Origin: the human T2T-CHM13v2.0 reference genome, Homo sapiens
Strand: one strand, 5' to 3'
DNA: 64,000 nt
Assembly: GCF_009914755.1 (NCBI RefSeq)
Contig: NC_060935.1
Shown here: one piece after another, positions 56,571-59,259 of the stretch
Layout of the letters: each line of letters starts with the position of its first letter
How positions within the stretch are numbered: the first letter of the stretch is position 1
Program-made: the position numbers and the translations under genes
Notes under the pieces: model-generated
The model's input: only the letters and a program-made list of their open reading frames with translations
Database searches by the model: none
Told to the model about the DNA's origin: nothing

Positions 56571-57376
56571 TTAAATGGCCACAATTAGTTTCATGCCCTC
56601 ACTGCTCTAGATCTCAAGCAACCATTAGCAGGTTTCCATAAAAAGGTGTAATGTTGATTTTTTAAAAAAAGAAGCCTCCTGTGACGTGAATCAACAAAGA
56701 AACTACATCACAGGTCCACATACAAGTTACACTACCTTGCTACTCACACAGCATTCAGCATTCTTAACAACACAGGTTCAGATAGAGAAAGAGGACTCAT
56801 AGGATTAGGTTCCAAGTATAAAGAATGAAATTCCTCATTCAGGAATTGTTTTGTTTTGTTTTATTATTCCCAAACTTGTCTCTCCAGAATACTACTTCTG
56901 TGGCAAAGTTTTTCCATCAAAGGAGATAATTAATTCCTAGGAGAGAAAGCAGCAGCTATAAAATAAGATCCCTGAATCTTTACGGAAACCTCTTTAAATA
57001 TTCATGCAGTACAAGACAGAAATGTTTTTCTTGTTCACTCATCCACAGCAAGATTAATCACAGGCAAAGTGATCCATACATAACTGTTTCCTCCACACCT
57101 TTTGCCTCTTGCACTGTGGAACCAGAGCTATACATAATCAATTCTTCATGGTGTTTCCAGTGAATCGATTTTAATTCAAGTCCCAGGTTTTCTGTGAAAA
57201 TTTTTGAGACTTAGGCCAGATAAAAAGATTTATACTCATAAGAAAACTTTCTTTATTGAATTATAACTGATATACCAAAAACTACACATTTAATGTGTAC
57301 AGTTTTTTAACAACTGTGATTTAACATTGAATTATCTGAATAGACATAGACCTGAGGGGTTATAAAAGGATTCCTA

Positions 57377-57704
57377 GGCCGGGCGCAGTGGCTCACGCCT
57401 GTAATCCCAGCACTTTGGGAGGCCGAGGCGGGTGGATCATGAGGTCAGGAGATCGAGACCATCCTGGCTAACAAGGTGAAACCCCGTCTCTACTAAAAAT
57501 ACAAAAAATTAGCCGGGCGCGGTGGTGGGCGCCTGTAGTCCCAGCTACTCAGGAGGCTGAGGCAGGAGAATGGCGTGAACCCGGGAAGCGGAGCTTGCAG
57601 TGAGCCGAGATTGCGCCACTGCAGTCCGCAGTCTGGCCTGGGCGACAGAGCGAGACTCCGTCTCAAAAAAAAAAAAAAAAAAAAAAAAAAAAAAAAAAAA
57701 AAAA
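57377..57704 (+). mobile_element. AluYb8
   Basis: 7-bp duplication gcagtccgcagtc, ggatcatgagg, ctaacaaggtg, gggaagcgg; pure A40 run; TSD aaaaggattccta. Confidence 0.96.
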
Positions 57705-57769
57705 GGATTCCTAGATGAAAAGATATCAAAAATATGACCAGAAGGATGAAAAGGAGTCAGCAGAATGGG

Positions 57770-58082
57770 GGCCAGACACAGTGGCTCACGCCTGTAATCC
57801 CAGCACTTTGGGAGGCCGAGGCAGGCAGACCACGAGGTCAGGAGTTCGAGACCAGCCTGGCCAACATGGTGAAACCCCATCTCTACTAAAAATACAAAAA
57901 TTAGCTCAGCGTGGGGGCAGGCACCTGTAATCCCAGCTACTTGGGAGGCTGAGGCAGGAGAATTGTTTGAACCTGAGAGGCAGAGGTTGAAGTGAGCTGA
58001 GATCATGCCATTGCACTCCAGCCTGGGTGACAGTGCAAGACTATGTCTCAAAAAAGAAAAGAAAAGAAAAGAAAAAAGAAAA
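57770..58082 (+). mobile_element. AluSg-like
   Basis: Alu dimer, 20-bp TSD gaaaaggagtcagcagaatg. Confidence 0.92.
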
Positions 58083-58591
58083 GAAAAGGAGTCAGCAGAA
58101 TGAATATGCATGAAGGTGAGAGCAGTGCTTGTAGGAGAGAGAATACATAACAAAGGCCAGGAGGTGAAAAGAGTATGCAGGAAACCTAGTCAGTGCAGTA
58201 TGGCCATGATTATTAATTTGCTCATTCATTCAGCAATTATTTACTGAACCCCCAACTTGCGTGCCAGCCACCATGAGAGACACTGAGCTTATAAAGTCTT
58301 GTAAATTGTAAGATATGAAGCTAGAGAGATAGGAAAAGAGAATATCAAGAAGGTGCTTATAGTTGTGTTAAGACTTAACACTAATGACTATGGGAGAAAC
58401 AGGGAAAGTATATTTAAGCTAGTGAGTAATGCAGTTAGATTTTAATTTTATAATGATAATCCTAACTACAGTATGTACAATGGATTGATGGATCAAGACT
58501 GGAAGCAGGAGAGCACCTAGGGGTTATTGTAATTATTTCAGTGTGAAAGGCTGGAGGCCTCAGCCCTGGTGTTGCCAGTAAGGACGCAGAA

Positions 58592-59010
58592 TGTGGTGGA
58601 CACTATTGTGTCCAGCTCAAATCCCCTTCACCAGGCCAGTGCACAAGTGCCCCAGCTACTGTGGGTGTGGGCTGCCAACAGCTCACAGCCTTGCCCTTTT
58701 CTGGACAATTGCACCAGATAAAATGGGAGCTGCATCACTTAGGGTATTTTGTTCCCTCTCCCGGAGCCCACCAGCGATGATTGACTGGAATAGGGTTTAA
58801 GAGGTTAGTTCCTTTGTCTCAAGGTGGAAGCAGTTCTGTAGTACAATGTATACCTCAGAGCTCCCGGGGCTCCAGGCTAGAGACAGATTAGTTGAGACCA
58901 CATCCTTCCTTCCCCTACTATTGTATGTTTCCTTCAGTCTTTTCCCCTTATAAATCACGTTTATTAAAATTCCCATATCATCCTCTGAGCCTAGAGAAAT
59001 CAAATTAACA
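58592..59010 (+). mobile_element. LTR16-like LTR (paralogue of 37387-37830)
   Basis: ccagctcaaat...aacagctcacagcc...ctggacaattgcacca...taaatcac. Confidence 0.6.
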
Positions 59011-59259
59011 TGGAGAGATATAGAAGGTTTCGAAGAATATTTTTGAATTCTAAACAAAAGAACTTGATATAGGATGAAGATTAGAGAGAGAGAAGTCACA
59101 GATGAAACTTGGGCCCTGGCTTAGATCACTGGATGGAAGGAAGAGAGAGAAGATTAATGAGGTTTTGAATACATTGAATGATGTTCAAGTCTCAATGTAG
59201 TAATAAATATTACACACATAGGTAATCCTAGGACCTGTCATCAGAAACAAGACCTGGAG

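What the first reader, a model, noticed from the sequence alone, without database searches (positions are those of the whole stretch)
56577..59120. 'Ghost' OR locus: OR4C13 paralogue with promoter region and 3' flank retained but the coding exon missing
Seen: 56577-57342 is colinear with 30759-31463, upstream of OR4C13 (e.g. tttcatgccctca.tgctctagatctcaagcaacca). At ~57342 (tctgaata|gacatagacct) it switches to similarity with 36495-37935, downstream of OR4C13 (aaaaggattcctagatgaaaaga, shared L2 and LTR16-like pieces). The ~5 kb between these blocks in the OR4C13 copy, including the acceptor and CDS, has no counterpart. Inference: an old tandem duplicate whose gene body was deleted, invisible to protein-based pseudogene searches. 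It faces the 3' end of OR4C12 about 6 kb away. It could give sterile or antisense transcripts, act as a decoy in singular OR choice (CDS-deleted OR alleles are still chosen in mouse neurons), or be inert.
Basis: partly seen in the sequence, partly recalled or inferred. Interest (0 to 1): 0.8.

Follow-up and report, generated by a model that had tools for sequence, protein, structure and literature searches.

The report
Olfactory receptor locus missing its gene
This stretch is what remains of an olfactory receptor gene after a 6.5-kb deletion removed its coding exon but left its promoter-like region and 3' flank, an ordinary kind of gene loss that protein-based annotation cannot see.

Summary
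Window 56571-57343 and 57344-59109 (interrupted by two Alus) are colinear, at about 70-72% identity, with the 5' and 3' flanks of OR4C13. Each block has only six copies in the genome, all on chr11, so they are not interspersed repeats. Two segmental-duplication copies of the region settle the question. At chr11:48.60 Mb and 54.54 Mb the same two flanks (91-96% identical to the window) enclose 6466 and 6672 bp that the window lacks. That extra DNA includes an OR coding exon, frameshifted at 48.60 Mb and an intact 309 codons at 54.54 Mb. By gene order and spacing these are OR4C10P and OR4C46. The window junction (57343|57344) is a clean non-homologous deletion with 2-bp microhomology. It arose on the window's lineage after the duplications, and GRCh38 has the same gene spacing. 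The retained 5' flank carries a 21-nt homeodomain plus O/E-like element with exactly nine genomic copies. Eight lie 5' of an OR4C coding exon and the ninth is the ghost. Activity was not testable; its intact relatives show near-zero values in the published tables I saw. Most likely it is an inert relic.

The parts
56571..57343 (+). Retained 5' flank of the lost OR4C46-type gene. It is colinear with OR4C13 upstream 30752-31464. It contains a ~55-nt interspersed-repeat piece at about 57248-57309.
   Evidence: 72.4% to 30752-31234. (six genomic copies only, all chr11). (94.3-94.5% to chr11:48605887-48607370 and 54543388-54544874). (colinear up to the junction).
56872..57032 (+). Conserved core of the 5' flank, the putative promoter or first-exon region. 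It is 85-86% identical to the OR4C13-type copies, against roughly 55-75% in the neighbouring flank windows, and is also recognisable 4.1 kb 5' of OR4C12.
   Evidence: six copies; 97-98% to the SD copies, 85-86% to the OR4C13-type copies. (identity profile peaks at 31036-31243). (67% over 153 nt to chr11:50163868-50164014, minus strand, E 5e-13).
56923..56943 (+). 21-nt element GAGATAATTAATTCCTAGGAG: TAATTA (homeodomain-type site) abutting an O/E-like site.
   Evidence: the degenerate 21-mer has 9 exact matches in the whole genome, three per SD unit, each in gene orientation. Eight are 2.5-10.8 kb 5' of an OR4C ATG and the ninth is this one. There were 0 matches with one mismatch; a looser pattern gives 2 window hits against 0.04 expected. 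The motif consensus names are recalled and are discussed in general terms in PMC12547500 (passages).
56957..56963 (+). TATAAAA, 14 nt after the 21-nt element. It is present in the ghost/OR4C46/OR4C10P lineage. The OR4C12 copy has TATAAT-like sequence at that position and the OR4C13 lineage has none.
   Evidence: Alignments. Its role as a TATA box is an inference.
57342..57345 (+). Deletion junction 57343|57344 (...CTGAATAG|ACATAGACC...), with 2-bp (AG) microhomology and no filler.
   Evidence: the paralogs read ...CTGAATAG|GCTCTTTCC... on the left and ...GGAGAAAAG|ACATAGACC... on the right. One search gives the positions; no homology between the two breakpoint neighbourhoods (best E 0.33-0.43).
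57344..57377 (+). First 34 nt of the retained 3' flank. The last 14 nt (57364-57377, AAAAGGATTCCTAG) are one copy of the Alu target-site duplication.
57378..57700 (+). Alu with a ~45-nt pure A tail, inserted only in the window's copy. The second target-site copy is at 57701-57714. It is unrelated to the deletion, being 34 nt from the junction with intact target-site duplications.
   Evidence: the 48.60-Mb paralog reads straight through ...TTATAAAAGAATTCCTAGATGAAAAG.....
57701..59109 (+). Rest of the retained 3' flank. It includes an older Alu (about 57768-58083) that is shared with the 48.60-Mb copy. It is colinear with OR4C13 downstream 36514-37924.
   Evidence: 69.6%, 1486 columns. (six genomic copies of 58095-59109). 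(91.3% to chr11:48599400-48597183).
30752..31464 (+). Comparator: 5' block of the OR4C13 unit. Its copy of the 21-nt element is at 31090-31110, 2.6 kb 5' of the ATG.
33675..33689 (+). Comparator: conserved splice acceptor (TTTTCTTTTCAG|GTAATG) 32 nt before the OR4C13 ATG. The RefSeq exon starts at 33690, so an upstream non-coding exon is implied but not annotated.
   Evidence: conserved in OR4C13 and in the four paralogs aligned with it. Exon start taken from the hub gene table.
36493..37924 (+). Comparator: 3' block of the OR4C13 unit, starting 1.84 kb after the stop codon.

Best explanation
The locus is the relic of a third OR4C gene of this cluster, the window's copy of the OR4C46/OR4C10P lineage.

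History. An old tandem duplication produced an OR4C13-type unit and an OR4C46-type unit in direct orientation. A block of at least 39 kb carrying OR4C13-type, OR4C46-type and OR4C12-type genes was later copied to three places on chr11. On the window's copy alone, one non-homologous end-joining event with 2-bp microhomology removed about 6.5 kb. The removed DNA ran from roughly 400 nt downstream of a conserved promoter-like element to about 2.4 kb past the stop codon. That takes out most of the presumed intron, the splice acceptor, the whole coding exon and the proximal 3' region.

What is left. The 5' flank remains with an intact homeodomain plus O/E-like element and a TATA-like box, joined directly to the distal 3' flank. 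A young Alu later landed 34 nt from the junction.

Shown versus inferred. The structural steps are shown by the sequence. That the conserved element is the gene's promoter is inferred from its position, orientation, motif content and deep conservation. My committed reading of function is that the relic is now selectively inert. At most it could occasionally be picked by an olfactory neuron and give a short-lived sterile transcript. With no receptor protein to lock in the choice, the neuron would move on to another receptor gene.
For: Colinear blocks.

Low copy number, all syntenic: six copies in each.

Paralogs keep the gene body. tblastn finds an OR CDS at chr11:54540022-54539096 (84% aa identity to OR4C13, intact 309 codons) and at 48602732-48601805 (frameshifted). 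Both lie between flanks that are 91-96% identical to the window.

Breakpoints and lengths: 6466 and 6672 bp.

Polarity. The OR4C13 unit is colinear with the full paralog loci. The two paralogs are closer to each other (95-97%) than to the window (91-95%). Lineage-specific differences are W 51 of 1480 upstream and 93 of 1793 downstream, against A 28 and 38, and B 22 and 43.

Not an assembly artefact. From OR4C13 ATG to OR4C12 ATG is 30,078 bp in GRCh38 (PMC7055050 supplementary file 4 passages) and 30,073 bp in the window.

No homology at the breakpoints.

Promoter-like element. Conserved acceptor before the CDS.

Low expression of relatives. In PMC7055050 supplementary file 6 (passages only, column headers not read), OR4C13 is 0 in 12 of 12 columns. 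OR4C12 and OR4C46 are non-zero in 3 of 12 columns each, with maxima 0.78 and 1.84. In PMC4982115 supplementary file 3, all three genes show the same floor value in the visible columns.
Against: No transcription, accessibility or population data could be consulted, so 'inert' rests on absence of evidence and on the near-zero values of the intact relatives.

The 21-nt element is untouched in the ghost. Only 3 of 161 core positions changed on its lineage, against 48 of 1319 in the rest of the upstream block. That is too few sites to show decay or constraint.

The raised identity of the core between the OR4C13 and OR4C46 lineages could partly reflect gene conversion rather than selection. The coding exons are homogenised: 4-fold sites differ at 12 of 108, against about 30% in the flanks. 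The OR4C12 copy of the core argues for selection.

Gene names for the paralogs come from order, strand and spacing, not from an annotation of this assembly.
Confidence: 0.8

Rival explanations
1. The orphaned promoter is still active. It would be a natural, fixed human equivalent of an engineered coding-sequence-deleted OR allele. Some olfactory neurons choose it, it makes a sterile + strand RNA that runs toward the 3' end of OR4C12, and the neuron then switches receptor.
For: The 21-nt homeodomain plus O/E-like element and the TATA-like box are intact. The element has been kept through a divergence at which the rest of the OR4C12 upstream region is unalignable. About 300 bp of OR promoter suffices for OR-like expression of transgenes, and HD plus O/E sites are required (PMC12547500, passages). 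Sterile OR alleles are transcribed and engage enhancer hubs but are not stably chosen (PMC10765522, section 9).
Against: The intact relatives OR4C13, OR4C12 and OR4C46 show zero or near-zero values in the two published human tables (passages only). No 5' exon or transcription start is annotated for any of them. No expression data for the ghost were available. The RNA effects reported in PMC10765522 used RNAs containing OR coding sequence, which the ghost lacks.
Confidence: 0.12
2. The retained element acts as a local enhancer for the neighbours OR4C13 or OR4C12, through a side-by-side homeodomain and O/E composite site of the kind described for OR enhancers, rather than as a promoter.
For: The TAATTA and the O/E-like site directly abut. 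Side-by-side HD and O/E composites are reported as enriched in OR enhancers rather than promoters (PMC5608512 passages; PMC12547500 passages).
Against: Every one of the nine copies sits in gene orientation at a gene-proximal 5' position, one per gene, which is the pattern expected of a promoter. A conserved acceptor before each CDS implies an upstream exon. I could not score the element against the published composite motif because the logo is only in figures.
Confidence: 0.05
3. The similarity is only shared interspersed repeats that happen to lie in the same order.
For: About 55 nt (57248-57309) and the region beyond 59261 do hit many chromosomes. The search tool warns that its counts are lower bounds.
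Against: The blocks themselves have six copies genome-wide, all at syntenic positions in the three duplication units. The full 7.3-kb unit is colinear in the paralogs.
Confidence: 0.01
4. The window shows the ancestral empty site and the other two copies gained the gene body by insertion, or the deletion is an assembly error.
For: None found.
Against: The older OR4C13 unit has the gene body between the same flanks. The two copies that have the gene body form a clade relative to the window. Even so, presence in both them and the outgroup unit makes deletion the single-step explanation. GRCh38 has the same gene spacing to within 5 bp.
Confidence: 0.01

Closest known systems
OR4C46 (chr11:54.54 Mb in this assembly) and OR4C10P (chr11:48.60 Mb), the segmental-duplication paralogs of the ghost
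   Same: The 5' flank is 94-96% identical and the 3' flank 91% identical. They carry the same 21-nt element, the same older Alu (shown for the 48.60-Mb copy) and the same neighbours in the same order and orientation.
   Different: They keep 6.5-6.7 kb holding the acceptor and the coding exon. The exon is intact in the 54.54-Mb copy and frameshifted in the 48.60-Mb copy. The names are inferred from gene order and spacing in PMC7055050 supplementary file 1.
Engineered coding-sequence-deleted or non-coding OR alleles in mouse (for example tetO-P2(nc) in PMC10765522; the older delta-OR alleles are recalled, not read)
   Same: A promoter is present with no receptor protein, so such alleles can be transcribed but the choice is not stabilised (PMC10765522 section 9).
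   Different: Those alleles are engineered, retain most or all of the transcript, and are shown to be expressed. The ghost is natural, lacks the entire coding exon and proximal 3' region, and its expression is unknown.
Human OR deletion copy-number variants such as the 11q11 OR4C11/OR4P4/OR4S2 deletion
   Same: OR genes of the same family and chromosome are lost by genomic deletion in duplication-rich DNA.
   Different: Those are polymorphic deletions of whole genes. The papers (PMC2570968, PMC2978733, PMC7596328) were seen only as search listings. Here the deletion is present in both reference assemblies compared and leaves the 5' regulatory part behind. Its population frequency was not tested.
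Unprocessed OR pseudogenes, which make up most of this cluster
   Same: It is a dead copy of an OR gene in a tandem and segmental-duplication array.
   Different: Pseudogenes are recognised by a decayed coding frame. The ghost has no coding remnant and is absent from the curated OR list.

Membership tests
Olfactory receptor gene or pseudogene (family 4, subfamily C) | A recognisable seven-transmembrane OR coding sequence, intact or decayed | tested here: not met
   tblastn with OR4C13 and OR4C12 found nothing between 35 and 62 kb at E below 1.5. No unique piece of the paralog's missing segment occurs elsewhere in 50-64 kb.
Segmental-duplication paralog of the OR4C46/OR4C10P locus | Colinear, high-identity flanks in the same place within the duplicated block | tested here: met
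   Flanks are 91-96% identical on both sides, and the neighbouring OR4C13-type and OR4C12-type genes are in the same order and relative orientation.
Ancient tandem duplicate of the OR4C13 unit | Colinear unique DNA on both sides of the gene, not only repeats | tested here: met
   (64-72% across the flanks of the 7.3-kb unit; the coding region is higher). Six genomic copies only.
Class II OR promoter | Homeodomain and O/E motifs close together, 5' of the gene in its orientation | tested here: met
   TAATTA abuts an O/E-like site. It is conserved in nine of nine OR4C copies in gene orientation. The O/E-like site departs from the recalled consensus TCCCNNGGGA at 2 of 8 specified positions.
Class II OR promoter | A mapped transcription start site just downstream, with a 5' non-coding exon spliced to the coding exon | not testable with these tools
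   Only single-exon models exist for OR4C13, OR4C12 and OR4C46. A conserved acceptor 32 nt before the ATG implies an upstream exon, but no donor is conserved across the lineages.
Greek-Island type OR enhancer | Lhx2/Ebf composite motif with stereotyped spacing, and co-binding of both factors | tested here: inconclusive
   The two sites are side by side. The published motif is given only as a figure, so it could not be scored. No binding data were available.
Interspersed repeat | Many dispersed copies across chromosomes | tested here: not met
   Six copies, all on chr11 and syntenic. Only ~55 nt at about 57248-57309 and the two Alus are dispersed.
Repeat-mediated (Alu-Alu or L1-L1) deletion | Homologous repeats at both breakpoints in the undeleted state | tested here: not met
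   No significant similarity within 500 nt either side of the two breakpoints in the 48.60-Mb copy. In the 54.54-Mb copy the right-hand side was tested only to 280 nt on its inner side. Best E values were 0.43 and 0.33. The junction has 2-bp microhomology.

The most novel reading that the evidence does not exclude
The ghost is a natural, apparently fixed human counterpart of the engineered 'promoter without receptor' alleles. Its deeply conserved homeodomain plus O/E element would still be picked by a subset of olfactory neurons. It would recruit the enhancer hub and make a sterile + strand RNA running toward OR4C12. That would delay or bias receptor choice within this cluster, for example by lowering the output of the flanking OR4C12 and OR4C13.
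Probability: 0.08. Interest if true: 0.55.

Novelty: new member of a known kind. Interest (0 to 1): 0.3.

Why it matters
The result accounts for a missing gene. The OR4C13-to-OR4C12 interval once held a third receptor gene, so the human OR4C count in this duplication unit is two of an original three. Catalogues built on coding similarity cannot register this kind of loss.

The work also picks out a 21-nt element that marks the 5' side of every member of the OR4C12/13/46 clade. That gives a concrete candidate promoter for genes that are annotated only as single coding exons.

If the orphaned promoter were still active, it would be a ready-made natural test of what a receptor-less OR promoter does in human neurons. 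Nothing here shows that it is active, and its intact relatives have near-zero values in the published tables I saw.

Tried and rejected

No primate or other mammalian genomes are reachable with these tools.

The search for transcript evidence failed. The HAVANA curation (PMC7055050) and the human olfactory transcriptome paper (PMC4982115) give only single-exon models and zero or floor values for OR4C13, OR4C12 and OR4C46. I saw supplement passages and one part of one table, not the column headers or the main texts.

The published Lhx2/Ebf composite motif could not be compared because it is shown only in figures.

I looked for a conserved splice donor after the core. AAG|GTAAAA is present in OR4C13 and the 54.57-Mb copy only, not in the ghost/OR4C46 lineage or OR4C12, so no first-exon model is proposed.

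I tested for decay or constraint of the ghost's core. It shows 3 of 161 lineage-specific changes against 48 of 1319 nearby, which is too few to decide.

An Rfam scan of 56000-59600 gave 0 matches.

Literature searches for this relic or for natural receptor-less OR promoters returned nothing on point. That is the only basis for saying it is not in print.

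Full report
**What is in the sequence**

Self-comparison of the window confirms two colinear, same-strand matches.
- 56571-57060 matches 30752-31234 (72.4% over 504 columns, E 2e-73).
- 57700-59109 matches 36514-37924 (69.6% over 1486 columns).

BLAST loses the first match at 57060, but colinearity continues to the junction. 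A multiple alignment shows the last ~35 nt before 57343 aligning to 31428-31464. The first base of the segment missing from the window aligns to 31465. The right edge matches from about 36493.

Between the two blocks the OR4C13 copy has about 5 kb, including its coding exon (33722-34651). The ghost has nothing there. tblastn with OR4C13 and OR4C12 finds no OR remnant between 35 and 62 kb; the best hits are E 1.5 and 6.0.

**Not interspersed repeats**

- A whole-genome search with 56571-57360 returned 23 matches. Six cover the block and all are on chr11. The other 17 touch only about 55 nt (57248-57309).
- A search with 58095-59400 returned 40 scored matches of 124 candidates. Six cover 58095-59109 and all are on chr11. 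The other 34 touch only 59261-59400, outside the block.

The tool warns that its counts are lower bounds. Even so, the six full-length copies are exactly the ghost-type and OR4C13-type loci of three duplication units.

**The decisive comparison**

The six copies fall into three units: the window, chr11:48.58-48.64 Mb (A) and chr11:54.52-54.58 Mb (B). A and B are inverted relative to the window. In A and B the ghost's two flanks are 91-96% identical to the window, but they do not abut.
- In A, 6466 bp lie between them (48599421-48605886).
- In B, 6672 bp lie between them (54536716-54543387).

Inside that extra DNA tblastn finds an OR coding exon.
- B: 54540022-54539096, 84% amino-acid identity to OR4C13, an uninterrupted 309 codons.
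- A: 48602732-48601805, frameshifted near codon 30.

I compared order, strand and spacing with the curated GRCh38 table (PMC7055050, supplementary file 1 part 12). On that basis:
- B is OR4C50P / OR4C46 / OR4C7P.
- A is OR4C2P / OR4C10P / OR4C9P.
- The window is OR4C12 / [nothing listed] / OR4C13.

These names are inferences from spacing (for example 11,589 bp in both assemblies between the OR4C50P and OR4C46 starts). They are not an annotation of this assembly.

**Polarity and timing**

The older OR4C13 unit (30626-37924) is colinear with the entire A and B middle loci. Identity is 64-72% in the flanks. A gene body between these flanks is therefore the ancestral state.

A and B are 95-97% identical to each other and 91-95% identical to the window. 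Site-by-site counts agree:

| Region | Sites compared | Window-specific | A-specific | B-specific |
|---|---|---|---|---|
| Upstream block | 1480 | 51 | 28 | 22 |
| Downstream block | 1793 | 93 | 38 | 43 |

The deletion therefore happened on the window's lineage after it split from the ancestor of A and B. With recalled catarrhine substitution rates, that split is of the order of 20-35 million years old. This is an inference; no outgroup species were available. The deletion could be any age younger than that.

It is not a CHM13 artefact. From the OR4C13 ATG to the OR4C12 ATG is 30,078 bp in GRCh38 (PMC7055050 supplementary file 4 passages) and 30,073 bp in the window.

**Mechanism of the deletion**

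- The window reads ...CTGAATAG|ACATAGACC... at the junction.
- The undeleted copies read ...CTGAATAG|GCTCTTTCC... at the left edge.
- They read ...GGAGAAAAG|ACATAGACC... at the right edge.

This gives 2 bp (AG) of microhomology and no filler. The two breakpoint neighbourhoods share no significant similarity, with best E values of 0.43 in A and 0.33 in B. This is a simple end-joining deletion, not Alu-Alu or L1-L1 recombination.

The Alu at 57378-57700 has perfect 14-nt target-site duplications (57364-57377 and 57701-57714) and is absent from A. It is a later, independent insertion 34 nt from the junction. The Alu at about 57768-58083 is shared with A.

**What was kept: a promoter-like element**

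An identity profile of the OR4C13 unit against the A middle locus covered 30600-36000 only. Most flank windows lie between 55% and 80%. The strongest peaks are over the coding exon (82-96%) and over 31036-31243 (82-87%). Lesser peaks reach 87% at 31400-31970.

The 31036-31243 peak corresponds to ghost 56872-57032. That core has six copies genome-wide, 97-98% identical among ghost-type copies and 85-86% identical to OR4C13-type copies.

A seventh, far more diverged copy lies 4.1 kb 5' of the OR4C12 ATG in gene orientation (chr11:50163868-50164014; 67% over 153 nt, E 5e-13). It is the only unique piece of that 10-kb upstream region that aligns to either other lineage.

The best-conserved stretch is GAGATAATTAAT(T/C)CCT(A/G)GGAG, a TAATTA homeodomain-type site abutting an O/E-like site. 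Searching the whole genome for this 21-mer gave:
- 9 exact matches, 0 with one mismatch and 38 with two mismatches elsewhere. The reversed-pattern control gave 10.
- The nine are three per duplication unit, each in the orientation of its gene.
- Eight lie 2.5-10.8 kb 5' of an OR4C ATG.
- The ninth is the ghost (56923-56943), about 400 nt before the deletion junction.

A looser pattern has 2 hits in the window against 0.04 expected.

A conserved acceptor (TTTTCTTTTCAG|GTAATG) sits 32 nt before the ATG in OR4C13 and four paralogs, exactly where the RefSeq exon begins. These genes should therefore have an unannotated upstream exon.

Homeodomain and O/E sites near the start site are the known hallmarks of OR promoters, and about 300 bp of such sequence can drive OR-like expression (PMC12547500, passages). 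I therefore read the core as the family's promoter or first-exon region. That is an inference, since no start site is mapped.

One caveat applies. The coding exons of the OR4C13 and OR4C46 lineages are homogenised: 4-fold sites differ at 12 of 108, or 11%, against about 30% in the flanks. Gene conversion could thus contribute to the 85-86% identity of the core. The OR4C12 copy is what argues for selection.

**Does the relic do anything?**

This could not be tested.
- The element is intact in the ghost. All three core changes on its lineage (56876, 56894, 56984) lie outside the 21-mer.
- A count of 3 of 161 against 48 of 1319 is too small to show either constraint or decay.
- The intact relatives have near-zero values in the published tables I could see. 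OR4C13 is 0 in 12 of 12 columns. OR4C12 and OR4C46 are non-zero in 3 of 12 each, with maxima 0.78 and 1.84 (PMC7055050 supplementary file 6, passages only, headers not read). All three show floor values in PMC4982115 supplementary file 3.
- Work on sterile OR alleles shows they can be transcribed and contact enhancer hubs but are not stably chosen without receptor protein (PMC10765522, section 9). Those RNAs contain OR coding sequence, which the ghost lacks.

My committed reading is an inert relic. I give about a one-in-eight chance that the promoter still fires occasionally.

**Comparison with what is known, and novelty**

Loss of OR genes by deletion in duplication-rich DNA is well known, and so are receptor-less OR alleles as engineered tools. 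This is a new, unannotated instance of a known kind.

It is absent from the curated OR list. Three literature searches found no description of it. It adds a corrected gene history for this interval and a candidate promoter element for the OR4C12/13/46 clade.

Interest is modest unless expression is shown.

Noticed in passing
window 33722-34651 versus chr11:54539093-54540022 (locus L029): The OR4C13 and OR4C46-type coding exons are 88% identical and differ at only 12 of 108 four-fold sites (11%). Their flanks differ by about 30%, and the high-identity tract stops within about 100 nt of the CDS on both sides. This suggests gene conversion between the two tandem paralogs before the segmental duplications.
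   Followed up: partly
window 24645-64000 and beyond; chr11:48.58-48.64 Mb (L023-L027, L034); chr11:54.52-54.58 Mb (L028-L032, L035): A block of at least 39 kb carrying OR4C13-type, OR4C46-type and OR4C12-type genes exists in three copies on chr11. The other two are inverted relative to the window. Of the nine gene slots, three have intact frames (OR4C13, OR4C12 and the 54.54-Mb middle gene), five are frame-disrupted and one is deleted.
   Followed up: partly
window 33675-33690: The RefSeq OR4C13 exon begins exactly after a conserved polypyrimidine-AG acceptor. The annotated single-exon transcript is therefore probably truncated at a splice site and a 5' non-coding exon is missing from the model.
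   Followed up: partly
window 59923-59935: Between the ghost's 3' flank and OR4C12, the two paralogous copies carry an extra 3.3-3.6 kb (chr11:48593624-48597183 and 54531327-54534652). It matches the long repeated element at window 8303-11875. This is either an insertion in their common ancestor or a second deletion in the window.
   Followed up: no
chr11:48579082 and 54516774 (just outside L034 and L035): The 21-nt element of the OR4C12-type pseudogenes in the two paralogous units lies 10.7 kb from the ATG, against 4.2 kb for OR4C12 itself. About 6.5 kb was therefore inserted there, and long repeats are present in L034 and L035.
   Followed up: no
window 31330-31372: A (GT)n microsatellite lies just downstream of the OR4C13 core. 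It is absent from the two paralogous OR4C13-type copies.
   Followed up: no
chr11:54536699-54536715 (L028): The 54.54-Mb copy has its own small deletion just inside the right breakpoint region. It removes the sequence homologous to window ~57357-57881 apart from the window-specific Alu.
   Followed up: no
window 57248-57309: A ~55-nt piece inside the retained 5' flank hits many chromosomes at 81-92% identity. It is present in the ghost/OR4C46 lineage but not at the homologous place of the OR4C13 lineage. It looks like the 3' end of a LINE from recall; the family was not determined.
   Followed up: no
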